Shown in pieces: positions 27,140 to 51,827 of a DNA stretch of 54,950 nucleotides. The position numbers were made by a program, and so were the translations under genes. The notes beneath the pieces are model-generated. The model did not search any database, was not told the origin of the DNA, and was given only the letters and a program-made list of their open reading frames with translations. Source of the DNA: a virus; the IMG/VR virus record IMGVR_UViG_3300017971_000060; one strand, 5' to 3'. Positions within the stretch are counted from its first letter, which is position 1. Each line of letters begins with the position of its first letter.

Positions 27140-27751
27140 TTAGTCCTTAGTAGCGCAAACCGGGCCAATCCCTGCTTCAATGCTCTCCGGGGTGGTGAGT
27201 TTGCGACCGCACCGGCAACAAGTTCCCTCATGCAGTACCTCAAGGAAACTAGGCAGACGGTCAGCGTTCAGTGCATTGAAGAACCATGCAATAGACTGGG
27301 CGCTCTTGGCGGTTGCCTTTATGCCAGACTTGCGGCCATGTGACCAAACCAGCTTGTCACCCCGTACCCGGAATTGACCAAGGTACTGGTAGTCACTGGT
27401 GTTGTCTGCCCCTGTCAGGACAGCCACAAAGCGCGGGTAATCACCTTCGGCGTCAGCCGGGGTGGACACTTTGAAGGTGTAGCGGTTGCCAGACTGAGTA
27501 TTCAGCATGGTAACAGTACCGTGACCGCCAACAAGGTAGTCAACGATAGCAGCCCGGTCTGATAGTGGGCGGCTGTTGGTTTCAGGAAACTCCCTGTCCA
27601 GATAGGTAGTCAGTGCGTCACGGTCATCGAAAGAGATAGGGTGAGCGCGGTCACGGGTAGGTGAGAAGTGCAGGTAAGGGCCACTGTTGTCAACCTCTTT
27701 ACGCAGAATGCCCACTTCCTTGCCGTTGCGTGTGATCTGTTCAGTCATCAT
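27140..27751 (-). CDS. DUF6011-like protein, 203 aa
   Basis: C-terminal CCRCGRKLTTPESIEAGIGPVCA. Invariant TIR ctggagaactgacATG. Confidence 0.65.
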   Translation of the reverse strand: MMTEQITRNGKEVGILRKEVDNSGPYLHFSPTRDRAHPISFDDRDALTTYLDREFPETNSRPLSDRAAIVDYLVGGHGTVTMLNTQSGNRYTFKVSTPADAEGDYPRFVAVLTGADNTSDYQYLGQFRVRGDKLVWSHGRKSGIKATAKSAQSIAWFFNALNADRLPSFLEVLHEGTCCRCGRKLTTPESIEAGIGPVCATKD

Positions 27752-29328: not shown

Positions 29329-29835
29329 CTAGTCCAGTAGTGTTCTCGGGATCGTGAACCAGTGCCGTCCGGCGTTGCGCCAGCTATTCATGCTGCTGTC
29401 CCTGTCCGGGTAGTTGTCAGGTGCGACGATGAACACGGCAGAAGTCTTCATAAGAACACTCAAGCAGTTTTTGCAGGGTGGTCTGGTACTAACTACGTAG
29501 TAGATTTCGTCAGGGGAAAACCCGTTGCGGGCGGCTTCCATGACGGCGTTGACTTCTGCGTGAACAGCGCGGCAAGTGTTACTACCTCTGACCATAGTGT
29601 CAGCGTCATCGGTGTTGCAGGTGCATTCGCCAAGGCAATCAGGTAGGGTGTTTGACCCTGTTCCTAACAGGGTAGCGTGTTTGTCCAACACGATACACTT
29701 GACGCTGGCCCGTGGGCATTGGCCTATGTCCTGACCACTGGCCTGTTCAGCATCGATAAGCTGATTTATAATGCCAAAGGCGAACTTGGCTACATCTTCT
29801 CTGTTGATTTCGTGTTGCTCTCTTTGTGCTTCCAT
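29329..29835 (-). CDS. Deoxycytidylate (dCMP) deaminase, 168 aa
   Basis: Zinc motifs VHAEVNAV and PCKNC with correct spacing. RBS AGGAGACTATAATG. Confidence 0.8.
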   Translation of the reverse strand: MEAQREQHEINREDVAKFAFGIINQLIDAEQASGQDIGQCPRASVKCIVLDKHATLLGTGSNTLPDCLGECTCNTDDADTMVRGSNTCRAVHAEVNAVMEAARNGFSPDEIYYVVSTRPPCKNCLSVLMKTSAVFIVAPDNYPDRDSSMNSWRNAGRHWFTIPRTLLD

Positions 29836-29858
29836 TATAGTCTCCTGAGACTGTTGTA

Positions 29859-30644
29859 CTACAGATTAAGTGCCTGACGTTTCCTGTCAAACGCCGTTGC
29901 TACTCCACCACCCCATTCAGTAAGGTGGATGTTTGGGCCTATTCCTGTAGCGTATTCTTCCAGAATAGCTACAGCCCGTTTTCGTTGTGGCGGCAAAATG
30001 TGCCCACTCATAGTATGGTGGTAGTAGACACCCATGTCCACCCCTATTTCAGCCGCCACGTACTGTTGAAGTTTGGTGAACACGGCAACGTCTTGGCAGA
30101 CAGTTGTAGTGTAGTTGTTTGACCGCATGGACGTACACATATCCAGCTTGCCATGCCGTACCCGGAAGTTGAACCCAAGAGTACAGGGATATTCGCAGTT
30201 GGTTTCACCACGTTCCAGCGCTTTGCCTACAAAACGGTCTTTGTCATCCAGAATCATAACACAAGCGCGGCGGGTGGTGCCCTGAGTTTCCTGCAACATC
30301 TGGATAGCATAAGGAAGTTGCTCGACAATGCGCGGGCCGTATGCTACACAGATCAAGGGCTTTCCCGGTTGCTGAAAGAGGGTGCCGTAATTTTTGGCTT
30401 GCGGGTTGACGTCAAAGAACTCTTCAGGAATAGTAGCCTGTCCGTCGATGATCCAGTTGAACATCAAGGTAGAGAACATCGGGTTGAAGTTGCGGTTCTC
30501 GGACTGTAGCTCTATCCTTGTAGGGTCAGTGAGCGCGAAAGTGTGGTTGATAAGTTCCTCGTCTTCAGACAGGAACGCTTGCATCAGGTTAGCGTGATAA
30601 ATATCATGCCAAAACCCGGTTATTGGTTCTGGAACTATGTGCAT
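29859..30644 (-). CDS. Thymidylate-synthase-fold pyrimidine C5 transferase, probably dCMP-specific (hydroxymethylase or methylase), 261 aa
   Basis: Ungapped match to the ThyA core: AYGPRI, TTRRACVMILD, YPCTLGFNFRVRHGKL, MRSNN...CQDVAVF, SGHI. Asp sits at the ThyA Asn177 position. Confidence 0.7.
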   Translation of the reverse strand: MHIVPEPITGFWHDIYHANLMQAFLSEDEELINHTFALTDPTRIELQSENRNFNPMFSTLMFNWIIDGQATIPEEFFDVNPQAKNYGTLFQQPGKPLICVAYGPRIVEQLPYAIQMLQETQGTTRRACVMILDDKDRFVGKALERGETNCEYPCTLGFNFRVRHGKLDMCTSMRSNNYTTTVCQDVAVFTKLQQYVAAEIGVDMGVYYHHTMSGHILPPQRKRAVAILEEYATGIGPNIHLTEWGGGVATAFDRKRQALNL

Positions 30645-30654
30645 AGTGGTCTCC

Positions 30655-31590
30655 TCAGACTTTTGTGAATACGAATACGTGGTGGGTGGCGCTAGTCTGT
30701 TCCCCTGTTTTGGTTAGCGCGCCACTCAAGCTATCGGCCAGCGCTACTACGTCAGAAGGGGTCAAACATGCCCCTGCTTCAGTCATAGCTTCCATTCTCC
30801 AGTCAAGCCGGAAATTTGGCTGCTGTTCGATTACAACCAGTTTGCCCCCGGTCTTCAGAAGTGCTACCAGAGTAGTCATAACCGTGTGCTGCTTTTCCTT
30901 GCCAAGAACGTGCAGCACTTCACTGACGATAATGGTGTCCAGAGAACTTAACTGGAAGTGGTTGGTGACGTCAGCGAAATCAGCCACTATGATTTCAGTG
31001 GACTGGTTGCCAGCCAACCGGGTGCCGGGTGCCTTGTCATACAGGTAGCCGATAGCGTCAGGGCAAGCGTGTAGAGTAGCTTCAAGATACACGCCATCAC
31101 CACCCCCGAAGTCTAGCACTTTCTTGTCAGAGCCGGGTGAAGTCAGACACGCCACGTACCGTAGCAGATTGGGCATGAATTCTTCAGTGTAGACTGCCAG
31201 AGCAGCCCGCAACTTTGAGTATTTGCGCGGGTCAGTGACATAGTTTCGGTCAAGTTGCTGGTTCATCATGCTGAACTCGTAGTCCACAAGCGGGGCAATC
31301 TTGACCAGCCGTTCTCCACTAGCAGACAGTTTCAGAGAGTCCCCATCACCGTCCAGCCAGCCGAATTCCTCCCAAATCTTGATGACGTTCTGCAACTTGT
31401 GGACAGTGGGGTTGTACTCCCAAATTCGATTGTTGACCCCTGCAAGGATAGCGGGAACAAGCCATGCCGCTTCCAGAATGCCGTACACAGAAGGGCCAAT
31501 TTCCGATATATATGGCAAACGTACATCAAAGCCGTTTGGTATTGCGTTGTCAGGGTGTTCTTCCCCGACTCGGTAGCCGTCATTTTCCAT
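30655..31590 (-). CDS. Class I SAM-dependent methyltransferase of the small-molecule O-methyltransferase type, 311 aa
   Basis: Motifs VLDFGGGDG, ADFADV, SEVLHVLGKEK and GGKLVVIE after a ~150-aa helical N-terminal domain. No DNA-MTase motifs seen. Confidence 0.7.
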   Translation of the reverse strand: MENDGYRVGEEHPDNAIPNGFDVRLPYISEIGPSVYGILEAAWLVPAILAGVNNRIWEYNPTVHKLQNVIKIWEEFGWLDGDGDSLKLSASGERLVKIAPLVDYEFSMMNQQLDRNYVTDPRKYSKLRAALAVYTEEFMPNLLRYVACLTSPGSDKKVLDFGGGDGVYLEATLHACPDAIGYLYDKAPGTRLAGNQSTEIIVADFADVTNHFQLSSLDTIIVSEVLHVLGKEKQHTVMTTLVALLKTGGKLVVIEQQPNFRLDWRMEAMTEAGACLTPSDVVALADSLSGALTKTGEQTSATHHVFVFTKV

Positions 31591-32605
31591 CTTTTGCCTC
31601 CAGAGTAGTGATAACGTTGCTGCAAATCCAGCTATCTAGTGAAGCCGGTGTGTTGTTGCGGTGCATATCATACCGGATGAAAGCTTCGTTGTCCACTGAG
31701 GATAGTTCCTGTGGTTTGAAGTGGAACACTTCGCCCTGTTGTGGTAGGCACGAATTGAACATGTGGTAGACATCCTGCATCTTTTCGTGTTCGACATGAC
31801 CGTACAACTCGGTGCGGGCCTGAACCCCTGCAACATAAGTTTCCAGCCAAAGGTCTTCGTTGGTTGGCACTGACAGGATAGAGACATTTTGCTCTGAGTC
31901 TGTGAACGCTTTCCAGTTCTGCCATGGGTGCATTTCGCCACCCCGGTAGACAAGTGAGTAAATAGGGTGAGACAGCCAAGCCCGCTCAAGAACTACTACA
32001 GTATCCTTGGCCATGGCAGCGGCGTAGTACAATGCCCCTGTCCTGTAAGTGTGCATGTGTTCTTCAATGGCTTCAGACCAGTAGAGATGAATGTACTCGC
32101 CCCCGGTCAACTCGCAAATCCGCTCTGACAGGGTAGTCTTTCCTGAGCCATCCGGCCCGTCAATCAGGATAAGCCCCTTGTACCGGCCAGCGAGTGCCCC
32201 CGGCTGAAGGCGGGTAGCGGTACCCGAATCTATCAGGTCATCCAGAACCGGGCCTTGCCAGCCGTCTGGTTTGTTGATTTCCTGTTTCCACCCTCGCCGT
32301 TGCTTAGCCGGGTCAAGAACTTTCGTCATATTGGCGGCGTGTACCCTTCTGAAAGCCTCATCAAAATTCCAGCCGTTGCGGTGAGCAGTACCACAAGCAA
32401 AGTAGACAAGATCAACAAGGGCATCCAGTTGCTCGTGTTGGTCACCATTGAAAACAGCTTCTTCATATTCGTCAAGTTCCTCATGCAGACAGGTGAGCCG
32501 GAATTTCTGTTCATCCGTACCCAGTAAGCGCGGGCCATCGTTGTAGGCCAGCCCGAATTTTTCGTGGAATTCACGTACCAGTTGATAGGGTGTTTTAACT
32601 GCCAT
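31580..32605 (-). CDS. Fusion protein: MazG-like NTP pyrophosphohydrolase (N) + thymidylate-kinase-like dNMP kinase (C), 341 aa
   Basis: N-terminal part: FHEKFG...LHEELDEYEEA...LDALVDLVYF...VHAANMTK. C-terminal part: P-loop IDGPDGSGKTT and ERAWLSHPIYS (DRY..S..AY-like). ATG 32605 follows ctggagaaccgtg. Confidence 0.7.
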   Translation of the reverse strand: MAVKTPYQLVREFHEKFGLAYNDGPRLLGTDEQKFRLTCLHEELDEYEEAVFNGDQHEQLDALVDLVYFACGTAHRNGWNFDEAFRRVHAANMTKVLDPAKQRRGWKQEINKPDGWQGPVLDDLIDSGTATRLQPGALAGRYKGLILIDGPDGSGKTTLSERICELTGGEYIHLYWSEAIEEHMHTYRTGALYYAAAMAKDTVVVLERAWLSHPIYSLVYRGGEMHPWQNWKAFTDSEQNVSILSVPTNEDLWLETYVAGVQARTELYGHVEHEKMQDVYHMFNSCLPQQGEVFHFKPQELSSVDNEAFIRYDMHRNNTPASLDSWICSNVITTLEAKDGK

Positions 32606-32978: not shown

Positions 32979-33563
32979 TCACGCTGCTTTCTTTTTAGCA
33001 GCAGCGGCCTTGCGCTTGGCAGCAGCTTCAGCCTTTTTCTTGGCGGCTTCGGCCTTCTTCTGTTCAGCGGCCTTGCGCTTGGCTTCAGCAGCAGCTTCCT
33101 TTGCGGCCTTTTCCTTGGCAATCCAGAAATCCTTGTGCGGGCCTTTCTTGGCGAGTGCCATGTGACCTTCAGCCCAATCCTTGTGATCCTGGGAACCAAC
33201 AGCGGCCAGACTTGCGTCAATCTCACCAGCTACGAACAGTTCACGGCGGTACTTCGTGCAGTGCTTCTTGTCGGCAGCGGATTCCGGCATTGTGTCGGCA
33301 ACCTGATCCAGAATTTGCTGGTCAGTCTTCTTGGCCTTGATCAGTTTGCAGATCAGTTCCTTTGCAGTACCTTCTTTCTTCGGCATAACTTTTGCTCCAG
33401 TCGATGCGATGAAGTTGAACAGTTCAACCGTATCGCAGTTTACAATGGTGCCAGCCGGAATGTCTCCCAAATCAGCGTACAGCCTGATAGAAATAGTTCC
33501 TTCGGCGGGAAGGGTTGCGGCATCATCAGCACCGCCCAACAGATCATCGTTTGTATCAGTCAT
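32979..33563 (-). CDS. Protein with histone-H1-like Lys/Ala-rich C-terminal tail, 194 aa
   Basis: TIR ctggagaaccaccATG. Last ~50 aa read KEKAAKEAAAEAKRKAAEQKKAEAAKKKAEAAAKRKAAAAKKKAA. Confidence 0.7.
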   Translation of the reverse strand: MTDTNDDLLGGADDAATLPAEGTISIRLYADLGDIPAGTIVNCDTVELFNFIASTGAKVMPKKEGTAKELICKLIKAKKTDQQILDQVADTMPESAADKKHCTKYRRELFVAGEIDASLAAVGSQDHKDWAEGHMALAKKGPHKDFWIAKEKAAKEAAAEAKRKAAEQKKAEAAKKKAEAAAKRKAAAAKKKAA

Positions 33564-35797: not shown

Positions 35798-35985
35798 TCT
35801 TTCTCCCCTTCTATAGTAGTAGTCACAGACCAGTTATAGCCACAAACACATTTTGTATCCCACCATTCAACACCGTCAGTGCAAAGCCGAATTTTATCTT
35901 GGCATTTTGGGCAAACCACTTCTATGATAGTGCCAGCGTCATTTGTGCCAGCGTACTCAAAATCTCGTACAGTGATTTTACTCAT
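35794..35985 (-). CDS. Small zinc-ribbon protein, 63 aa
   Basis: CPKCQDK...CVCGYNW. ATG 35985 forms an ATGA overlap with the polymerase stop. Confidence 0.5.
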   Translation of the reverse strand: MSKITVRDFEYAGTNDAGTIIEVVCPKCQDKIRLCTDGVEWWDTKCVCGYNWSVTTTIEGEKE

Positions 35986-38093
35986 TTCCTGTACCTCTGC
36001 CCAACCCACCCTTCAGACTCCACTGGTAGCCCGTGTGCCCATGGCGGGAGATAGCACAACAGCGCTTCAAGTTCTTCCAGTGTACCAAAACCGTCTTCAT
36101 CTTCAGTCACAACTTCATCGTGAACCGACATTATCAAGGTATACAGCATGACGTCAAGGAAGAGCATTCCCAATACCATCAAATCCCGGCTACCGGCCTG
36201 TGTGATATTTTCTGCCCACTTCCCGCCATAAGTGTCTAGTACTGTCCACTTGTGCGTATAACTGTCGAAACCTTCATACTCAACCTTCAGTTCATCCTTG
36301 TCATAACGTGTAGAAACTGCCACCCTTGCATGTGGATAGTAGAGTTTGTGGCCTGACGGCAACACGCAAATCAGGAACTTCACTTTCCCTATCATCTTAG
36401 GGTAGAACACAACCTTGGTGAACTTGGTCACTACCTCTACAGTCATATTCTGCTTCAGCGCTCGAATAGCGGCCTGTTCAGTCTGTTTCCAGAACTCAGG
36501 TACAAGAGGGAAGCGTTTTCTGTAGCGCTTGATAACTCGTTCGGCTTCCTTGCTACTGATTTTGATACCAGCCTGTTCGTCAACCCGTTTACGGAACTTG
36601 ACAGCCCACATACCGTAGCCAGCGCCAAGTATGGTTTCCTTGCCAAGCGGCCTTTCCTTGGATTCCTTGGTCAAGTCCTTGTACGGAACACCGTAGATGT
36701 CACTTGCCATATCAAGGTAGATGTCTTCACCACGTCTGAAAATCCCCAAAGCGCGGTCATCCCCGGCAATCCAGAGTAGGAAGCGGGCTTCAATGGCTGC
36801 ATAGTCAGCGCTCTTGAAGTGGTCACCGAAAAGCGGGGTGATGACTGCCCGTATCAGGGAAGTGAGAATATCCATTGCTGTGACTAGTCTGTCAGGTTTG
36901 GATAGCTTCTCTGCATAAGCTTCCAGCGCGGCAATGTCGCGGCGTTTGACCATAGTCAACAGGGTTTCAACGTCTGCCCCTTTAGGTAGAACCGGGCGCG
37001 GCAAGTTCTGGATTTGAATCCCCCGGCCACCGTACCGGCCTGTTCTGGCCTTGTGGTAGTTCAGCAGTTCATGTATCCTGTGGGTGACAGGGTCAATCAT
37101 CTCCAGCATTGTCTTGTACTTGCTGGTAGACGTTGAGCCAGCTATCTTATACAGCAACAGCATACGCTTGACCTTCTCAGGAAGGTCTTTCTTACGCATC
37201 CACAATTTGATTGTGGAACCCTGCATGTTAGGTAGGATGTAACCTTGATCGGCCAACCACTCTTTGACCTTGGCCCGTTGTGTACACTTCTGGAAGGCAC
37301 CCCCTGACAGAGTAGAAGCTTCAGCGTTGTACTTTTCCTTGACCTTGTCAGATAGTTCTACCATGGCCCGCACAGCGGTGCGGTCAACATGGATTCCCCG
37401 CCAGTTTATCTCATCAGTCATCCATGCAATGAGTTGTTCAAACACTGGCAGGTCAGGGAGAGTGTTGTCAAGGTCTACAGTAGCAGCGGTGTCTTGTACG
37501 CAGTAGTAACAGAAATCTTTCCATTCAGCCGGGTGAGTGTGTTTGTTGTTATACTTCCCTTTGCGCTTGCCCCGTGACACCGGCATACTGAACAACTGAA
37601 TCAGCGCTTTGCCCTTGGGGTCTTTCTTATGCTTCACCCTCATAACCTGAGTGGCAGTGTTCAGGTCTGACGCTATCGCCATGTGTTTGCACTTGTCAGC
37701 AGTATCCAGCATGTTGCGCGGGCTGAGTATGCGCGGCCATTTCAGTTTCTTGACTCCTACGTTGTTCCAGATACAGAACTCGAAGAAACTGTTGTGAGCG
37801 TTGATAAAATGCCCTGCTCTGATAGCGTCAAACACTTCCTTAGGCGGCTTGCCTTCCCCGGCCACCCACAATTTAGTGTCTTCCGGGTTGCCGGTCATGC
37901 AGTATGACATCATCAAGATACGGCAAGAGGGGTGACGGCTATAGGCAAATGCCCCTACGTCTGTAACGTCAACGTCACAGGCAGTCTCAAAGTCAATGGT
38001 GAACCGGGGCGTGTCTGCTAGACGTGCCTTGGCATCCAGCAACCGTTTCTTCAGACGGTTTCTTGCTATCCTGATAGCGCGGTCGTGTTTCAT
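35982..38093 (-). CDS. Family A DNA polymerase with 3'-5' exonuclease domain, 703 aa
   Basis: Exo I TIDFETA. Motif A DYAAIEARFL. Motif B RPLGKETILGAGYGM. Motif C MSVHDEVV. Confidence 0.9.
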   Translation of the reverse strand: MKHDRAIRIARNRLKKRLLDAKARLADTPRFTIDFETACDVDVTDVGAFAYSRHPSCRILMMSYCMTGNPEDTKLWVAGEGKPPKEVFDAIRAGHFINAHNSFFEFCIWNNVGVKKLKWPRILSPRNMLDTADKCKHMAIASDLNTATQVMRVKHKKDPKGKALIQLFSMPVSRGKRKGKYNNKHTHPAEWKDFCYYCVQDTAATVDLDNTLPDLPVFEQLIAWMTDEINWRGIHVDRTAVRAMVELSDKVKEKYNAEASTLSGGAFQKCTQRAKVKEWLADQGYILPNMQGSTIKLWMRKKDLPEKVKRMLLLYKIAGSTSTSKYKTMLEMIDPVTHRIHELLNYHKARTGRYGGRGIQIQNLPRPVLPKGADVETLLTMVKRRDIAALEAYAEKLSKPDRLVTAMDILTSLIRAVITPLFGDHFKSADYAAIEARFLLWIAGDDRALGIFRRGEDIYLDMASDIYGVPYKDLTKESKERPLGKETILGAGYGMWAVKFRKRVDEQAGIKISSKEAERVIKRYRKRFPLVPEFWKQTEQAAIRALKQNMTVEVVTKFTKVVFYPKMIGKVKFLICVLPSGHKLYYPHARVAVSTRYDKDELKVEYEGFDSYTHKWTVLDTYGGKWAENITQAGSRDLMVLGMLFLDVMLYTLIMSVHDEVVTEDEDGFGTLEELEALLCYLPPWAHGLPVESEGWVGQRYRK

Positions 38094-38814: not shown

Positions 38815-39585
38815 TTAGGCTACGTGAGCCAGTTCGTTGACAAAGTCAGACTGAATCTGAGTTTTGTGGTTGATCGTGTCCATGGACACCCCGGCTTCAC
38901 TTTGCGGCTTGACCGCTTCAGTGCAAGCGTTGAGCAACCGCCATGCAGTGAAACCCTGTTCGGCGTGTTCTTCATAGGAAGGTCTGTCCCACTCCTGAAC
39001 AGCGCGGGCCATCTGACCGCCAGCCAGTCCACCCCGACGAAGCAACTCAACCAGTGCAGCGTCACCGTCTTTCTGCTTCATCTGGAAGTTGCGAAGACCG
39101 TCAAAAGTCAACTGTTGCTTCTCAGCGGCTTCAGGAATCTGACTTACAGCGGTGTCAACCAGTGACGGCAAGCGGGTCAGAATGTTGGTAGTCTGCTTGG
39201 TAGAGAACACCCCAAGGTTGCCGTGGAAGCAAAGGTTAGAGCAGCACATAACGTTGCTGCCCAAAGCTATGGCCCGTGGAACAGAGTAGTCATGGGCACC
39301 ACGAAGACCAAGGAAGATAGACCAATCATCGTCACGAATCAGGTCACCAGACTTGGCACCGATTTCCATCATGCCAAACATGCGGTTGTGGTTCTCAGCA
39401 ATCGCAAACTCTTCATGGATAATCTCAAGTCCGTGGCTGCTCAGAGAGTGGTCAACCATCTCAATGAAGTCCACGAAAGGTACCGGGCGGTGACGGTTGC
39501 CCAAAGGGGCAGGAGTGTCAAGGTGGCCCATCTGCTTGCGGGTCATGATTACATCGTTGCGTGCATCGTACATTAATTTGCTCAT
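38815..39585 (-). CDS. DUF932-family protein, 256 aa
   Basis: Core RGAHDYSVPRAIALGSNVMCCSNLCFHG resembles DUF932 (S.D.S....G..v.vC.N). TIR ctggagaacgacATG. Confidence 0.65.
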   Translation of the reverse strand: MSKLMYDARNDVIMTRKQMGHLDTPAPLGNRHRPVPFVDFIEMVDHSLSSHGLEIIHEEFAIAENHNRMFGMMEIGAKSGDLIRDDDWSIFLGLRGAHDYSVPRAIALGSNVMCCSNLCFHGNLGVFSTKQTTNILTRLPSLVDTAVSQIPEAAEKQQLTFDGLRNFQMKQKDGDAALVELLRRGGLAGGQMARAVQEWDRPSYEEHAEQGFTAWRLLNACTEAVKPQSEAGVSMDTINHKTQIQSDFVNELAHVA

Positions 39586-40105: not shown

Positions 40106-40261
40106 TTAGCCTAACGGAATGCCGTGTTTGGTCTTGAAGGCGTCAAAAATCATCCACATGAGTTGATCCGCAAAGTGGTGACCAAGACCAAACAGGAAAC
40201 CGATAATGACTAGCATTACAGCGTAAGCCCAAAGGGGTTGGTTGTTTGGTAAGTTGCTCAT
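40106..40261 (-). CDS. Small membrane peptide, 51 aa, translationally coupled to the U32-like gene
   Basis: ATGA overlap with the stop of 40258..41379. TMD WAYAVMLVIIGFLFGLG. Below the ORF-track cutoff. Confidence 0.4.
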   Translation of the reverse strand: MSNLPNNQPLWAYAVMLVIIGFLFGLGHHFADQLMWMIFDAFKTKHGIPLG

Positions 40262-41379
40262 AGCGCCGGGTCTTTGTATGGATTGGAAATCACTTCGTAC
40301 CAGTCATCACAGTAGAAACAACTGGAACAGAGTTTGTTGTTGCAGTCAAGCTTGTGGGTTAGCCACGGGTCAATGAAGGTTTGCAGCGCTTCAGCCGGAA
40401 TGGAAAACCGCTGCTTATGCTCAGACAGTTCGTCTTTCTCTGAGTAGATTGTTTCCAAAGGCTTCCATAGGCCAAGCAAGTTTCCAGTGTAATCCCGCCG
40501 TAAATAGGATTCAGCCACCATTTTGATGTACGGGGTCTTGGCAGTCCGGCCTGTCACCTTGAAGTTGTGAATGCCTCTGTTCTCATAGTGCCGTAGCCAT
40601 TGCGGTAGGACAAAGCCGGTTCGCAGCCAGTCAGCCGGGTTGTGGCCCCTGCTAGACATGCACTTACCCATCGGGTAGTTTTGTATCAGCTTGGCGTCTT
40701 TCTTGGTCACGTTTTCGGAATGGCACTGGTAACAGCTATCCCTGTAGATGCAATGCGCCATGTTCGGCGTGTCACCTACTCCTGTAGTGTTTGCGCAGAA
40801 CTCATTCACCATGACCTCATACTCCATGCCAAGCGCTTCACAGGCAACAGCGAAGTATTGCAGTTTGGTGAAATCCCGATTGTAGAGAATATTCCCGACA
40901 ACTTTGTCTACACGGGGGTCAAGTTCCTTGTAGGCTGCTAGTTGCATAGGGGTGTCCACATGCATGATAGTGGATAACTCTATCCTGAGTTTCTCTTTTG
41001 GCAGATAGCGCCGGAAAAACTCTATGAGCATAGGGTTAGACACAATCAAGCGGTGAACGCCAATGTCCACAAGGAACTTTGTCCACTCAATCAGTTCTTC
41101 CTTGCGGGCCATGAATTCAGCCTTGCTACCTAGATACGGCGCGTTCATTGTGTAGTTGAACCTGATTCCGTAACTCAGGAGTAGCGCCACATGGTTGGCA
41201 AGGTTGCTGTTTGTTATGTCTGGCAGTCTGAAATCCGGTCGTGCAGCCAGCCATGCGTGTGCCTTGTCACTACCGTAAACCTCTGTGATCCGGTCTTCAG
41301 CGGTGCCGTGTTCCCGATTGATTTGGTCAAGCACTTCGGGCATGTGCTTATCGAAATTGTAGCCAACGTTTAACTTCAA
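40258..41379 (-). CDS. Peptidase-U32-like protein (Fe-S hydroxylase family candidate), 373 aa, TTG start
   Basis: GGAG lies 8 nt upstream of TTG 41379. The core GIRFNYTMNAPYL...FLVDIGVHRLIVSNPMLIEFFRRYLP..LRIELSTIMHVDT resembles the U32 barrel. Cys clusters CIYRDSCYQCH and CNNKLCSSCFYC are present. Confidence 0.5.
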   Translation of the reverse strand: MKLNVGYNFDKHMPEVLDQINREHGTAEDRITEVYGSDKAHAWLAARPDFRLPDITNSNLANHVALLLSYGIRFNYTMNAPYLGSKAEFMARKEELIEWTKFLVDIGVHRLIVSNPMLIEFFRRYLPKEKLRIELSTIMHVDTPMQLAAYKELDPRVDKVVGNILYNRDFTKLQYFAVACEALGMEYEVMVNEFCANTTGVGDTPNMAHCIYRDSCYQCHSENVTKKDAKLIQNYPMGKCMSSRGHNPADWLRTGFVLPQWLRHYENRGIHNFKVTGRTAKTPYIKMVAESYLRRDYTGNLLGLWKPLETIYSEKDELSEHKQRFSIPAEALQTFIDPWLTHKLDCNNKLCSSCFYCDDWYEVISNPYKDPAL

Positions 41380-51300: not shown

Positions 51301-51338
51301 ATCTGTTATAATAGCAGTGTTTAACTCAGGAGATGAAT

Positions 51339-51827
51339 ATGGCAAAGACTAATCTGATAGTAGACTTGGACGGCACACTAGCGCTGGATGACCACCGAAG
51401 ACCTATGATAGAGTCACACGGTTGGGGCGCGTACTTTGATTTGTGCCACAATGACGAACTGAACCAGCCGGTACTCATGATTATTGAACGGTTCTGGATG
51501 ACACACAATGTCCACATCTTTACGGGCCGCGCTGACTCTACAAGGGCAGCAACAGAAGAGTGGTTGCAGGCGCACTTTGTGCCACACTCCAGCCTTGAGA
51601 TGCGTCCAAGTGCAGGAGTAGACATGAACAGCGGTTCACAGGCCGCACTCGGTTGTGACAAGAACTGGAAAGGCGCACTACTAGAGAAGCATGACCTCAC
51701 CCCTGACAACGTGGAATTCGTGTTGGATGACAGGGATGACATGGTTGCATGGTGGCGTGACCGGGGCTTTACGTGCTTTCAAGTTAGAGCGCAAGGCCAG
51801 ATGTATCACACTGACCGGGAAGAGTAG
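51339..51827 (+). CDS. HAD-superfamily phosphatase resembling the T4 Pnkp 3'-phosphatase / nucleotidase domain, 162 aa
   Basis: Motif I VDLDGTLA, motif II FTGR, and C-terminal LDDRDDMVAWWRDRGFTCFQV. GGAG lies 6 nt upstream of ATG 51339. Confidence 0.65.
   Translation: MAKTNLIVDLDGTLALDDHRRPMIESHGWGAYFDLCHNDELNQPVLMIIERFWMTHNVHIFTGRADSTRAATEEWLQAHFVPHSSLEMRPSAGVDMNSGSQAALGCDKNWKGALLEKHDLTPDNVEFVLDDRDDMVAWWRDRGFTCFQVRAQGQMYHTDREE

What the first reader, a model, noticed from the sequence alone, without database searches (positions are those of the whole stretch)
29329..32605. Operon encoding a complete pyrimidine-replacement toolkit plus an unexpected O-methyltransferase: candidate new DNA hypermodification
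Four tightly packed minus-strand genes sit in the replication block. They encode a MazG-like NTP pyrophosphatase fused to a thymidylate-kinase-like kinase, a small-molecule-type SAM O-methyltransferase, a thymidylate-synthase-fold C5 transferase, and a dCMP deaminase. The pyrophosphatase, kinase, C5 transferase and deaminase are the functional set T4 uses to replace dC by 5-hydroxymethyl-dC before replication (gp56, gp1, gp42, Cd). SPO1-type phages use the equivalent set for 5-hmdU. The methyltransferase has no counterpart in either pathway. My inference is that virion DNA carries a fully substituted C5-modified pyrimidine. The methyltransferase may further derivatise it, for example by O-methylating a 5-hydroxymethyl group. 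I am not aware of that product being described in DNA.
Basis: partly seen in the sequence, partly recalled or inferred. Interest (0 to 1): 0.85.

Follow-up and report, generated by a model that had tools for sequence, protein, structure and literature searches.

The report
Phage pathway for predicted 5-methoxycytosine DNA

Summary
Four tightly packed minus-strand genes (29329-32605), each with a Shine-Dalgarno site, sit in the replication module of a ~55 kb siphovirus genome. They encode a MazG/HisE-type pyrophosphatase fused to a thymidylate-kinase-like kinase, a methyltransferase, a thymidylate-synthase-fold enzyme and a dCMP deaminase.

The interpretation needs one chemical correction. The thymidylate-synthase-fold enzyme is not hydroxymethylase-like. 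It has Asn at E. coli ThyA position 169 and Asp at 177, and it lacks Trp80. That is the published signature of flavin/O2-dependent 5-hydroxy-dCMP synthases (RB69 gp48, HY126 AfhB; NAR 2026). Its best structural match is AfhB (PDB 9iqc/9iqu).

The methyltransferase models confidently (pLDDT 92) as a two-domain family-2 small-molecule O-methyltransferase with an invariant His/Glu pair. This methyltransferase family lies next to an N169-type synthase in 10 of 11 lineages. It was absent from 25 loci with D169 (hydroxymethylase-type) cassettes. The window has no glycosyltransferase.

Best reading: dCTP -> dCMP -> 5-hydroxy-dCMP -> 5-methoxy-dCMP -> incorporation into DNA. This would be a new O-methyl branch of the 5-hydroxycytosine pathway described in 2025-2026. 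It is computational only; confidence is about 0.5.

The parts
32216..32605 (-). N-terminal domain (about aa 1-130) of the fusion protein: MazG/HisE-type all-alpha NTP pyrophosphatase. Inferred role: a dCTPase that depletes dCTP and supplies dCMP.
   Evidence: PF01503 PRA-PH, E 1.4e-13, 51.5 bits against a cutoff of 21.3. phrog_671 nucleotide pyrophosphohydrolase, E 4e-28. PDB DR2231 MazG-like enzyme, E 2e-5. The acidic metal motifs 'EELDEYEE' and 'EQLDALVD' are present, with E47, D62 and D66 invariant among homologues. Substrate specificity was not tested.
31580..32188 (-). C-terminal domain (about aa 140-341) of the fusion protein: thymidylate-kinase-like P-loop nucleotide kinase. Inferred role: phosphorylates the modified dCMP.
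   Evidence: P-loop 'IDGPDGSGKTT' and 'VLERAWLSHPIY' motifs are invariant among homologues. phrog_761 thymidylate kinase, E 5.9e-9. hhalign to RB69 gp45, the TMK-like kinase inside the RB69 5-hydroxycytosine cluster: probability 92%, E 7e-7. Pfam and NCBIfam TMK models match only the P-loop and fall below their cutoffs.
30655..31590 (-). Family-2-type small-molecule SAM-dependent methyltransferase (311 aa). Inferred role: 5-hydroxy-dCMP (or 5-hydroxycytosine in DNA) O-methyltransferase.
   Evidence: AF2 model pLDDT 92.1. Foldseek against PDB: the top 50 hits are all two-domain family-2 natural-product methyltransferases (3mcz E 9e-17, DnrK, RdmB, CalO1, MmcR, SOMT). phmmer best PDB hit is CalO6, E 6.5e-6, with H227 aligned to the His of its 'LHDW' motif. 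Invariant across 32 family members: G164, D185, E224, H227, E255, R128, R265, Y104, Y124, H303. The start overlaps the kinase gene stop by 11 nt.
29859..30644 (-). Thymidylate-synthase-fold enzyme (261 aa). Predicted flavin/O2-dependent dCMP C5-hydroxylase (5-hydroxy-dCMP synthase), not a hydroxymethylase.
   Evidence: Residues at E. coli ThyA positions: E143, C146, T147, N168, N169, D177, and no W80. This is identical in 52 of 52 close family members, matches validated RB69 gp48 and differs from T4 gp42. Best PDB sequence hit is 9iqu/9iqc, E 9e-16; 9iqu is 151/152 identical to RB69 gp48 over the aligned stretch. AF2 pLDDT 92.9. Foldseek top hits are 9iqc 'monooxygenase dependent on riboflavin with dCMP and FAD' and 9iqu 'HY126 dCMP hydroxylase AfhB'. 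The D169N rule comes from PMC13326640.
29329..29835 (-). dCMP deaminase (168 aa). Inferred role: diverts dCMP to dUMP for dTTP supply.
   Evidence: PF00383, E 5.4e-9, above the cutoff. phrog_174 dCMP deaminase, E 1.8e-12. PDB hits 2hvv, 7fh4, 1vq2 (T4 Cd) and 4p9c are all dCMP deaminases. HAE and PCxxC zinc motifs are visible in the sequence.
40258..41379 (-). U32-'peptidase'-like Cys-rich protein (373 aa). A possible accessory of 5-hydroxycytosine metabolism; function unassigned and not an obligatory partner.
   Evidence: phrog_5757, E 1.8e-86. PF01136, E 4e-7. About 40% identical to RB69 gp50 and to homologues that lie next to N169 synthases in 15 T-even viral contigs. It follows the deaminase directly in the L017/L018/L027/L058 lineage, which shows no thymidylate-synthase-fold gene. 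It is absent within 10 kb either side of the kinase-fusion gene in L059-L061; L062 has the 10 kb upstream but ends about 2 kb downstream.
35982..38093 (-). Family A DNA polymerase (context). Inferred to be the enzyme that must incorporate the modified dCTP.
   Evidence: phrog_17 DNA polymerase, E 3e-84. PF00476 in the contig annotation. Synteny with the cassette is conserved in all relatives that have enough flank. Use of the modified nucleotide is inference only.

Best explanation
The operon is a pre-replicative cytosine-replacement pathway of the 5-hydroxycytosine type, described in 2025-2026, with a new finishing step.

Proposed steps:
1. The MazG/HisE-like domain hydrolyses dCTP to dCMP. 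This is inferred from the family and from the T4 gp56 analogy.
2. The thymidylate-synthase-fold enzyme hydroxylates dCMP at C5 to give 5-hydroxy-dCMP, using a flavin and O2. This is inferred from a validated residue signature and from the closest solved structure.
3. The family-2 O-methyltransferase transfers a methyl group from SAM to the phenol-like 5-OH, giving 5-methoxy-dCMP. This is inferred from fold class, a conserved His/Glu pair, acidic charge and strict gene linkage.
4. The fused thymidylate-kinase-like domain makes the diphosphate, and a host nucleoside-diphosphate kinase makes the triphosphate.
5. The phage family A polymerase incorporates the triphosphate, so virion DNA carries 5-methoxycytosine in place of cytosine.
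6. The dCMP deaminase diverts part of the dCMP to dUMP for thymidylate supply.

The likely benefit is resistance to host nucleases, as shown for glycosylated 5-hydroxycytosine. Whether methylation happens on the mononucleotide or on DNA is not settled; I favour the mononucleotide.
For: Thymidylate-synthase-fold enzyme:
- It has N169, D177, E143, C146 and T147 and lacks W80, as do all 52 close homologues. This matches RB69 gp48 and not T4 gp42 or E. coli ThyA.
- Per PMC13326640, every D169N homologue tested, including metaviromic ones, made 5-hydroxy-dC in vivo.
- Its best sequence and structure hits are the dCMP hydroxylase AfhB, 9iqu/9iqc.
- Its best phage tblastn hits are Bragavirus, Dhakavirus and Pootjesviridae phages. 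The first two genera are named as predicted 5-hydroxy-dC producers in that paper, and the Pootjesviridae member RL38JI was shown to make it.

Methyltransferase:
- The model has pLDDT 92 and matches family-2 small-molecule O-methyltransferases over its full length.
- H227 aligns with the 'LHDW' His of CalO6. H227, E255, E224, D185, R128 and R265 are invariant in 32 members that are 24-73% identical to the window protein.
- The family is acidic, with median pI 5.1, like the nucleotide enzymes. PolA and SNF2 have pI above 9.

Linkage:
- The order kinase fusion, methyltransferase, synthase, deaminase recurs in 10 of 11 lineages.
- The strong methyltransferase family is found only with N169 synthases. 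It was not found in 25 loci with D169 (hydroxymethylase-type) cassettes.
- In more distant lineages, N169 synthases sit beside sugar-activation and glycosyltransferase genes, so they have a different decorating partner.
- No glycosyltransferase was found in the window.

Kinase: it is homologous to RB69 gp45, which lies inside the RB69 5-hydroxycytosine cluster.
Against: - There is no chemistry on this phage; every step is inferred.
- The window enzyme is only about 25% identical to AfhB/RB69 gp48. The D169N rule rests on roughly a dozen tested enzymes.
- Family-2 methyltransferases also include N-, S- and C-methyltransferases and the non-methylating RdmB, so the atom that is methylated is not determined. 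The PF00891 hit falls just below its cutoff (21.5 against 22.3 bits).
- Two lineages show the methyltransferase between kinase and deaminase with no adjacent synthase. In L027/L058 none was found in 13.8 kb of an incomplete 26.7 kb contig. L026 is only a 2.2 kb contig.
- The pyrophosphatase and kinase specificities are unknown.
Confidence: 0.5

Rival explanations
1. The end product is the same, but methylation is post-replicative. 5-hydroxy-dCTP is incorporated into DNA, and the methyltransferase then O-methylates 5-hydroxycytosine in the polymer, as the arabinosyltransferases of RB69 and DLP3 do.
For: In the known 5-hydroxycytosine systems, decoration takes place on DNA (PMC13326640; abstract and section list). 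The 5-hydroxymethylcytosine carbamoyltransferase acts on DNA and also on the dNTP (PMC8670742). The N-terminal domain of the methyltransferase is winged-helix-like (secondary structure).
Against: The fold class is one of small-molecule enzymes with an enclosed pocket. The protein family is strongly acidic, with net charge about -14 and median pI 5.1, unlike the DNA-binding proteins of the same phage. The gene is translationally coupled to the kinase gene. No DNA or RNA methyltransferase family matches it.
Confidence: 0.2
2. The thymidylate-synthase-fold enzyme is a dCMP hydroxymethylase, and the methyltransferase O-methylates the 5-hydroxymethyl group to give 5-methoxymethyl-dC.
For: The enzyme has the thymidylate-synthase fold with D177 and an acidic residue at 143, features shared with T4 gp42 and MilA. 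The MilA CMP hydroxymethylase is the second-best structural match. An unrelated methyltransferase gene does accompany some D169-type cassettes elsewhere.
Against: N169 replaces the Asp retained by T4 gp42 and by MilA (aligned 'MRAND'), and the folate-site W80 is absent. AfhB is the best match by both sequence and structure, while T4 dCMP hydroxymethylase ranks 38th. The strong methyltransferase family is never seen with D169 synthases (0 of 25 loci).
Confidence: 0.07
3. The methyltransferase acts on a different atom or molecule. It could N-methylate cytosine or 5-hydroxycytosine at N4 or N3. It could act on a cofactor or host metabolite. It could be a non-methylating SAM-dependent enzyme like RdmB. 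In these cases 5-hydroxycytosine, or another derivative, would be the final DNA base.
For: The family-2 fold also houses the N-methyltransferase PhzM, the S-methyltransferases DsyB and DtpM, the C-methyltransferase MrsA and the hydroxylase RdmB, all among the top hits. No substrate was tested. Two lineages lack an adjacent synthase.
Against: The invariant His227/Glu255 pair sits where family-2 O-methyltransferases carry their general base. The family is linked exclusively to hydroxylase-type cassettes and is absent from hydroxymethylase-type ones. It occupies the niche that glycosyltransferases fill in other 5-hydroxycytosine phages.
Confidence: 0.13
4. The deaminase acts after modification. 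It would convert 5-hydroxy- or 5-methoxy-dCMP to the dUMP analogue, and the thymidylate-kinase-like kinase would then activate a thymidine mimic. 5-methoxyuracil would replace thymine, possibly in addition to the cytosine change.
For: The methyltransferase is always flanked by kinase and deaminase, even where the synthase is missing. The kinase is thymidylate-kinase-like. 5-methoxy-dUMP is a close dTMP analogue (my own chemical knowledge).
Against: dCMP deaminase is a routine companion of cytosine-modifying cassettes, including D169-type ones and the MetaGPA set of cytosine-modified contigs. Known N169 systems replace cytosine, not thymine. No thymidylate-depleting function was identified.
Confidence: 0.06

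Closest known systems
Glycosylated 5-hydroxycytosine pathways of RB69, DLP3, HY126 (Afh genes) and RL38JI (Lee et al., NAR 2026, PMC13326640; He et al., Nat Chem Biol 2026, cited there)
   Same: Both have a thymidylate-synthase-fold dCMP hydroxylase with N169 and D177, a thymidylate-kinase-like kinase in the cluster, an all-alpha dCTPase-type pyrophosphatase, and pre-replicative synthesis of the modified nucleotide. RB69 and the window also share a U32-like gene.
   Different: The window has no glycosyltransferase or NDP-sugar genes. A family-2 O-methyltransferase takes the decorating role instead. The pyrophosphatase and kinase are fused. The host virus is a ~55 kb siphovirus with a family A polymerase, not a T-even myovirus. 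The predicted product is a methyl ether, not a glycoside.
T4 5-hydroxymethylcytosine pathway (gp56, gp42, gp1, Cd, alpha/beta-glucosyltransferases)
   Same: The logic is the same: destroy dCTP, modify dCMP at C5 with a thymidylate-synthase-fold enzyme, re-phosphorylate, and use a deaminase to supply dTTP.
   Different: The window enzyme fails the hydroxymethylase signature (N169 instead of D169, no W80). The kinase is thymidylate-kinase-like rather than gp1-like. There is no glucosyltransferase.
5-carbamoyloxymethylcytosine cassette from MetaGPA (Yang et al., eLife 2021, PMC8670742)
   Same: Both combine PRA-PH, a thymidylate-synthase homologue (D177), a dCMP deaminase and one extra group-transfer enzyme that derivatises the new hydroxyl.
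   Different: The extra enzyme there is a carbamoyltransferase acting on 5-hydroxymethylcytosine. Here it is a SAM methyltransferase, predicted to act on 5-hydroxycytosine.
tRNA 5-methoxyuridine pathway (TrhP/TrhO hydroxylation, then TrmR methylation; my own knowledge)
   Same: The two-step chemistry is the same: C5 hydroxylation of a pyrimidine followed by SAM-dependent O-methylation.
   Different: It acts on RNA uridine at the polymer level. Both enzymes are unrelated to those here: TrmR is a Mg-dependent catechol-O-methyltransferase-like enzyme, not family 2, and the hydroxylases are not thymidylate-synthase-fold.
Family-2 natural-product O-methyltransferases (CalO6, DnrK, MmcR, plant COMT/SOMT)
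   Same: Both have the two-domain architecture, the SAM motifs, and the His/Glu catalytic pair position.
   Different: Sequence identity is only 13-20%. The phage family forms its own clade of about 54 cluster representatives at E below 1e-10. It has invariant Arg128 and Arg265, which would suit a phosphate-bearing substrate (inference).

Membership tests
5-hydroxy-dCMP synthase clade of the thymidylate synthase superfamily (RB69 gp48 / AfhB) | Thymidylate-synthase fold with the catalytic Cys146 | tested here: met
   PF00303. AF2 pLDDT 92.9 and Foldseek hits to thymidylate-synthase-fold structures. C146 equivalent present.
5-hydroxy-dCMP synthase clade of the thymidylate synthase superfamily (RB69 gp48 / AfhB) | Asn at E. 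coli ThyA position 169 (diagnostic D169N) together with Asp at position 177 (cytosine specificity) | tested here: met
   The motif 'MRSNNYTTTVCQD' gives N169 and D177. This holds in the window protein and in all 52 close homologues. The rule is from PMC13326640.
5-hydroxy-dCMP synthase clade of the thymidylate synthase superfamily (RB69 gp48 / AfhB) | Closest solved relative is the flavin-bound dCMP hydroxylase | tested here: met
   9iqu/9iqc are the best hits by phmmer (E 9e-16) and by Foldseek (E 9.5e-16, TM 0.82). 9iqu is 99% identical to RB69 gp48 over the aligned stretch.
5-hydroxy-dCMP synthase clade of the thymidylate synthase superfamily (RB69 gp48 / AfhB) | Flavin- and O2-dependent formation of 5-hydroxy-dCMP | not testable with these tools
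   Needs an enzyme assay or the in vivo LC-MS assay.
T4 gp42-type dCMP hydroxymethylase | Asp169 and Trp80 (folate site) retained, together with Asp177 | tested here: not met
   The window has N169 and K at the W80 column, whereas T4 gp42 has D169 and W80. The T4 enzyme ranks only 38th in Foldseek.
Canonical ThyA (dTMP synthase) | Asn177, His147, Asp169, Trp80/Trp83 | tested here: not met
   The window has D177, T147 and N169, with K and G at the W80 and W83 columns. All NCBIfam thymidylate synthase equivalogs score far below their cutoffs.
Family-2 (PF00891-type) small-molecule O-methyltransferase | Two-domain fold: N-terminal helical/winged-helix domain plus Rossmann SAM domain | tested here: met
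   Foldseek gives full-length matches (alignments of 325-384 columns, most 330-350) to 3mcz, DnrK, MmcR, CalO1 and SOMT; the top 50 hits are all in this class.
Family-2 (PF00891-type) small-molecule O-methyltransferase | SAM motif I (DxGxGxG) and the acidic residue after strand 2 | tested here: met
   'LDFGGGDG' is present; G164 and D185 are invariant in 32 members.
Family-2 (PF00891-type) small-molecule O-methyltransferase | Catalytic His (the 'LHDW' position) with a partner Glu about 28 residues later | tested here: met
   H227 aligns with the His of the CalO6 'LHDW' motif. H227 and E255 are invariant. The role of this His as general base is from the literature on plant O-methyltransferases (my own knowledge).
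Family-2 (PF00891-type) small-molecule O-methyltransferase | Passes the Pfam PF00891 gathering threshold | tested here: inconclusive
   21.5 bits against a cutoff of 22.3. The 73%-identical homologue P0002 carries a precomputed PF00891 hit.
Family-2 (PF00891-type) small-molecule O-methyltransferase | O-methylation of a hydroxyl acceptor | not testable with these tools
   The acceptor atom and substrate need biochemistry.
MazG/HisE all-alpha NTP pyrophosphatase | PRA-PH/MazG domain with acidic metal-binding motifs | tested here: met
   PF01503 at 51.5 bits, above its cutoff. 'EELDEYEE' and 'EQLDALVD' are present, with E47, D62 and D66 invariant.
Thymidylate-kinase-like dNMP kinase | P-loop plus the TMK-type 'DR(Y/F)' region; homology to TMK-like phage kinases | tested here: inconclusive
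   The P-loop is present. The expected region reads 'LERAW' rather than DRY. hhalign to RB69 gp45 gives 92% probability over 80 columns. Pfam and NCBIfam TMK models match only the P-loop and fall below their cutoffs.
dCMP deaminase (CDA fold) | PF00383 with HAE and PCxxC zinc motifs | tested here: met
   PF00383 at 36.3 bits, above its cutoff. 'VHAEVNA' and 'PPCKNC' are present. PDB hits are all dCMP deaminases.
Glycosyl-5-hydroxycytosine hypermodification system (RB69/DLP3/RL38JI) | DNA glycosyltransferase(s) and NDP-sugar biosynthesis genes | tested here: not met
   No glycosyltransferase, SIS or NTP-transferase hit in any of the 44 window ORFs scanned against Pfam, 24 of which were also scanned against PHROGs. 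Such genes do flank distant N169 homologues elsewhere.

The most novel reading that the evidence does not exclude
Virion DNA of this phage family carries 5-methoxycytosine, a natural DNA base not described so far. In addition, the U32-like Cys-rich protein (40258-41379) is a second, oxygen-independent cytosine C5-hydroxylase. U32 relatives RlhA and TrhP are required for 5-hydroxycytidine in 23S rRNA and 5-hydroxyuridine in tRNA (my own knowledge). The U32-like protein could replace the O2-dependent thymidylate-synthase-fold enzyme. That would explain two things: why it sits in the synthase slot in the L027/L058 lineage, and why it lies beside 5-hydroxy-dCMP synthase genes in gut T-even phages, where its role is still unassigned.
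Probability: 0.12. Interest if true: 0.9.

Novelty: new variant of a known kind. Interest (0 to 1): 0.76.

Why it matters
- It would add an ether-methylated cytosine to the list of natural DNA bases.
- It would show that 5-hydroxycytosine, like 5-hydroxymethylcytosine, is a hub that phages decorate with different groups: sugars in T-even and Rhizobium phages, a methyl group here.
- 5-methoxy-dC is an isomer of 5-hydroxymethyl-dC. Both are C10H15N3O5, 257 Da (my own calculation from the 243 Da reported for 5-hydroxy-dC). Mass-only surveys could therefore mislabel it.
- It should escape enzymes and defence systems that recognise a free 5-hydroxymethyl or 5-hydroxyl group.
- The enzymes would be useful tools. 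A nucleotide-level 5-O-methyltransferase with a matching kinase could make 5-methoxy-dCTP or label 5-hydroxycytosine.
- The prediction can be tested directly with the in vivo assay already published for these synthases.

Tried and rejected
- DNA-level search of the cassette against 50,697 phage records found nothing. tblastn of the methyltransferase against the same records also found nothing. No cultured relative is available.
- The word-indexed protein search found only 3 close methyltransferase homologues. A repeat with a 32-sequence profile hit the candidate cap and added almost nothing. The exhaustive HMMER search was what revealed the family.
- The methyltransferase model matched only Rossmann cores among BFVD viral structures, with TM about 0.4. 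No known viral protein has this architecture.
- Literature searches found no paper combining methoxymethyl, phage and hypermodification terms. They found none containing '5-methoxycytosine', and none since 2024 containing both 'methoxy' and '5hodC'. The last search was badly framed, with min_terms set to 1, but its ranking still shows that no paper holds both terms. He et al. 2026 is not in the library, and the NAR supplements are not held.
- I considered the T4-type hydroxymethylase reading, an ordinary ThyA and an XP12-type dCMP methylase. The first two are rejected on residues 80, 147, 169 and 177. The third is made unlikely by N169 and the absence of the folate-site W80, because a methylase needs folate (my own knowledge); no XP12-type sequence was compared.
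- I considered the U32 protein as an obligatory partner of the methyltransferase. This is rejected because no U32 gene lies within 10 kb either side of the kinase-fusion gene in L059-L061, which carry the full cassette; L062 has the 10 kb upstream but ends about 2 kb downstream. Its U32 assignment is itself remote: a partial PF01136 hit, no NCBIfam hit and no PDB hit by sequence.
- I could not establish whether the L027/L058 lineage lacks a synthase altogether.
- The MetaGPA supplementary tables were uninformative about methyltransferase domains.

Full report
**1. Observation**

The window is almost all of a 54,968-bp metagenomic contig (ENA ERZ27256798 k141_2638590). It encodes a tailed phage with a terminase, portal, major head protein and a 1,446-aa tape-measure protein. 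Its replication module has a family A polymerase (PolA), an SNF2 helicase, a gp2.5-like single-strand DNA-binding protein, an exonuclease and a primase.

The kinase-fusion and methyltransferase genes overlap by 11 nt. The next two junctions are 10 and 23 nt. Each start codon is preceded by a GGAG-type ribosome-binding site. Family scans confirm the domain content:
- PRA-PH/MazG pyrophosphatase fused to a P-loop kinase
- a class I methyltransferase
- a thymidylate-synthase-fold protein
- a dCMP deaminase

**2. The cassette is conserved**

No cultured phage matches at the DNA level, and none encodes the methyltransferase. In metagenomes, however, the gene order kinase fusion, methyltransferase, synthase, deaminase recurs downstream of PolA and SNF2. 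It appears in lineages whose proteins are only 35-55% identical to the window's.

I count 11 distinct lineages with the methyltransferase. Ten have the full four-gene order. An exhaustive profile search finds about 54 cluster representatives of the methyltransferase family at E below 1e-10.

**3. The thymidylate-synthase-fold enzyme is a predicted hydroxylase**

A 2026 NAR paper (PMC13326640) reports several relevant results:
- RB69 gp48 and DLP3 gp80 make 5-hydroxy-dCMP from dCMP. These are thymidylate synthase homologues previously taken for hydroxymethylases.
- They bind a flavin and use O2.
- Asn at E. coli ThyA position 169, together with Asp177, is diagnostic. Every D169N homologue the authors tested, including metaviromic ones and Rhizobium phage RL38JI, produced 5-hydroxy-dC.

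I aligned the window protein and its 52 homologues with E. coli ThyA, T4 gp42, RB69 gp48 and Atu_ph04. The window protein and 51 homologues carry E143, C146, T147, N169 and D177 and lack W80, as RB69 gp48 does. T4 gp42 keeps W80, D169 and G173. The one outlier, P0056, is T4-like.

The best solved-structure hit by sequence is 9iqu/9iqc. The aligned part of 9iqu is 151/152 identical to RB69 gp48. A high-confidence AlphaFold model (pLDDT 92.9) has two top Foldseek hits: 9iqc ('Monooxygenase dependent on riboflavin with dCMP and FAD') and 9iqu ('phage HY126 dCMP hydroxylase-AfhB'). MilA comes next, and T4 dCMP hydroxymethylase ranks only 38th.

The best phage tblastn hits are Bragavirus, Dhakavirus and Pootjesviridae phages. 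The paper names the first two genera among predicted 5-hydroxy-dC producers, and the Pootjesviridae member RL38JI was shown to make it. I therefore assign the 261-aa protein to the 5-hydroxy-dCMP synthase clade, with a probability of about 0.8.

**4. The methyltransferase**

With a 32-sequence alignment, AlphaFold gives pLDDT 92.1. All top 50 Foldseek PDB matches are full-length, two-domain family-2 small-molecule methyltransferases. Most are phenolic O-methyltransferases such as DnrK, MmcR, CalO1, NcsB1 and SOMT. None is a DNA or RNA methyltransferase.

His227 aligns with the His of the 'LHDW' motif of CalO6. From my own knowledge of plant family-2 enzymes, that His is the general base and pairs with a Glu about 28 residues later. 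Here H227 and E255 are invariant, as are the SAM-binding G164 and D185. Two arginines, R128 and R265, are also invariant. I infer that they could bind a nucleotide phosphate.

The family is strongly acidic, with median pI 5.1 and net charge -14 in the window protein. That resembles the neighbouring nucleotide enzymes and contrasts with PolA and SNF2, which have pI above 9. A ring 5-OH on cytosine is a phenol-like acceptor, which is the kind of group this enzyme class methylates.

**5. Specific linkage**

A scan of IMG/VR with the pyrophosphatase-kinase profile separates two cassette classes:
- Five loci have the fusion, a strong methyltransferase-family hit (E about 1e-94 to 1e-101), a synthase reading N168-N169-D177, and the deaminase. 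One of the five lacks the synthase.
- Twenty-five loci have separate MazG and kinase genes, a synthase reading S/Q168-D169-D177 (hydroxymethylase type), and in 23 of them a deaminase. None has a strong methyltransferase-family hit.

More distant N169 synthases (P0052, P0053) sit beside a UDP-galactopyranose mutase, or beside glycosyltransferases with SIS and NTP-transferase genes. Those are the published glycosylation-type neighbourhoods.

The window has no glycosyltransferase or sugar-activation gene among the ORFs scanned. The methyltransferase thus occupies the decorating-enzyme niche specifically in hydroxylase-type cassettes.

**6. Mechanism proposed**

dCTP is hydrolysed to dCMP by the MazG-like domain. 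The flavin-dependent thymidylate-synthase-fold enzyme converts dCMP to 5-hydroxy-dCMP. The methyltransferase converts that to 5-methoxy-dCMP. The fused kinase makes the diphosphate. That kinase is homologous to RB69 gp45, which lies in the RB69 5-hydroxycytosine cluster. A host enzyme makes the triphosphate, and the phage PolA incorporates it. The deaminase supplies dUMP.

Shown here: gene content, residue signatures, fold classes and linkage. Inferred: every catalytic activity, the level at which methylation occurs, and full replacement of cytosine in the virion.

**7. Rivals**

- Post-replicative methylation of 5-hydroxycytosine in DNA (0.2).
It is contradicted by N169, the missing W80 and the 0-of-25 linkage result.
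- Another methyl acceptor, or a non-methylating role (0.13).
- A uracil-series product made through the deaminase (0.06).

Two lineages temper the linkage argument. In both, the methyltransferase lies between kinase and deaminase without an adjacent synthase. L027/L058 has a U32-like gene in that slot and no synthase in 13.8 kb, but its contig is incomplete. L026 is only a 2.2 kb contig.

**8. Comparison and novelty**

The system is a member of the 5-hydroxycytosine class at its first committed step, but it fails the glycosylation features of the described systems. Architecturally it parallels the MetaGPA cassette, in which PRA-PH, a thymidylate synthase homologue and a deaminase accompany a carbamoyltransferase. 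Chemically it parallels tRNA 5-methoxyuridine synthesis, but uses unrelated enzymes.

I found no report of 5-methoxycytosine in DNA or of a methyltransferase partnered with these synthases. He et al. 2026 and the NAR supplements could not be read. I rate it a new variant of a known kind.

One practical point: 5-methoxy-dC is isomeric with 5-hydroxymethyl-dC at 257 Da, so identification needs chromatography, MS/MS or NMR, not mass alone.

**9. Verdict**

Confidence in the 5-methoxycytosine pathway is about 0.5, or about 0.7 if the DNA-level variant giving the same product is included. Interest is 0.76.

Noticed in passing
window 40258-41379 (-); L021 2493-3662 (RB69 gp50); L036-L050 and L053; L017/L018/L027/L058: A U32-'peptidase'-like protein with eight invariant Cys is about 40% identical to RB69 gp50. 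The NAR paper leaves gp50 unassigned ('sugar or heterocycle reductase'). The gene lies directly beside N169-type synthase genes in 15 T-even viral contigs. In one siphovirus lineage it follows the deaminase where the synthase normally sits. This window has the gene but no sugar-pathway genes, so its role may concern the 5-hydroxycytosine base itself rather than arabinose synthesis. It is not found near the cassette in L059-L062.
   Followed up: partly
L066, L067 (9153-9992), L069-L074, L076: Cassettes of about 41-kb IMG/VR contigs carry a hydroxymethylase-type synthase (D169, D177). Immediately upstream of MazG they have an unrelated 279-aa Methyltransf_23 gene. It shares only the Rossmann core with the window's methyltransferase (hhalign over 113 columns).
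   Followed up: partly
L055/L056 (P0052) and L057 (P0053): Distant N169 synthase homologues lie next to a UDP-galactopyranose mutase and a UDG-fold protein, or next to GT2/GT9 glycosyltransferases with SIS isomerase and NTP-transferase genes. These look like further uncultured glycosyl-5-hydroxycytosine systems.
   Followed up: no
window 32979-33563 (-): A 194-aa protein with a Lys/Ala-rich, histone-H1-like C-terminal tail (AAKEAAAEAKRKAAEQKKAEAAKKK...) has no family hit. It is conserved between the SNF2 helicase gene and the cassette in every relative examined.
   Followed up: no
L009, L012, L013, L014, L016 (fusion gene); L015: In several relatives the pyrophosphatase-kinase fusion is 446-489 aa. 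It carries an extra MazG-like repeat or insertion of about 100 aa between the first MazG half and the kinase. In L015, MazG and the kinase appear to be separate genes. The fusion architecture is therefore variable.
   Followed up: no
window 51333-51827 (+): A 164-aa HAD phosphatase of the PNKP-phosphatase type (PF25109, E 2.6e-19) lies in the early region. It could be a nucleotidase or a polynucleotide 3'-phosphatase. No link to the cassette was established.
   Followed up: no
window 27140-27751 (-) and 38815-39585 (-): A DUF6011 protein (per the contig annotation; phrog_20259 here) and a weak DUF932 match flank the replication module. A DUF932-like gene also sits just upstream of the hydroxymethylase-type cassette in L067.
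   Followed up: no
general: 5-methoxy-dC and 5-hydroxymethyl-dC are isomers (C10H15N3O5, 257 Da; my own calculation). Nucleoside surveys that assign 5-hydroxymethyl-dC by mass alone could miss or mislabel this base.
   Followed up: no
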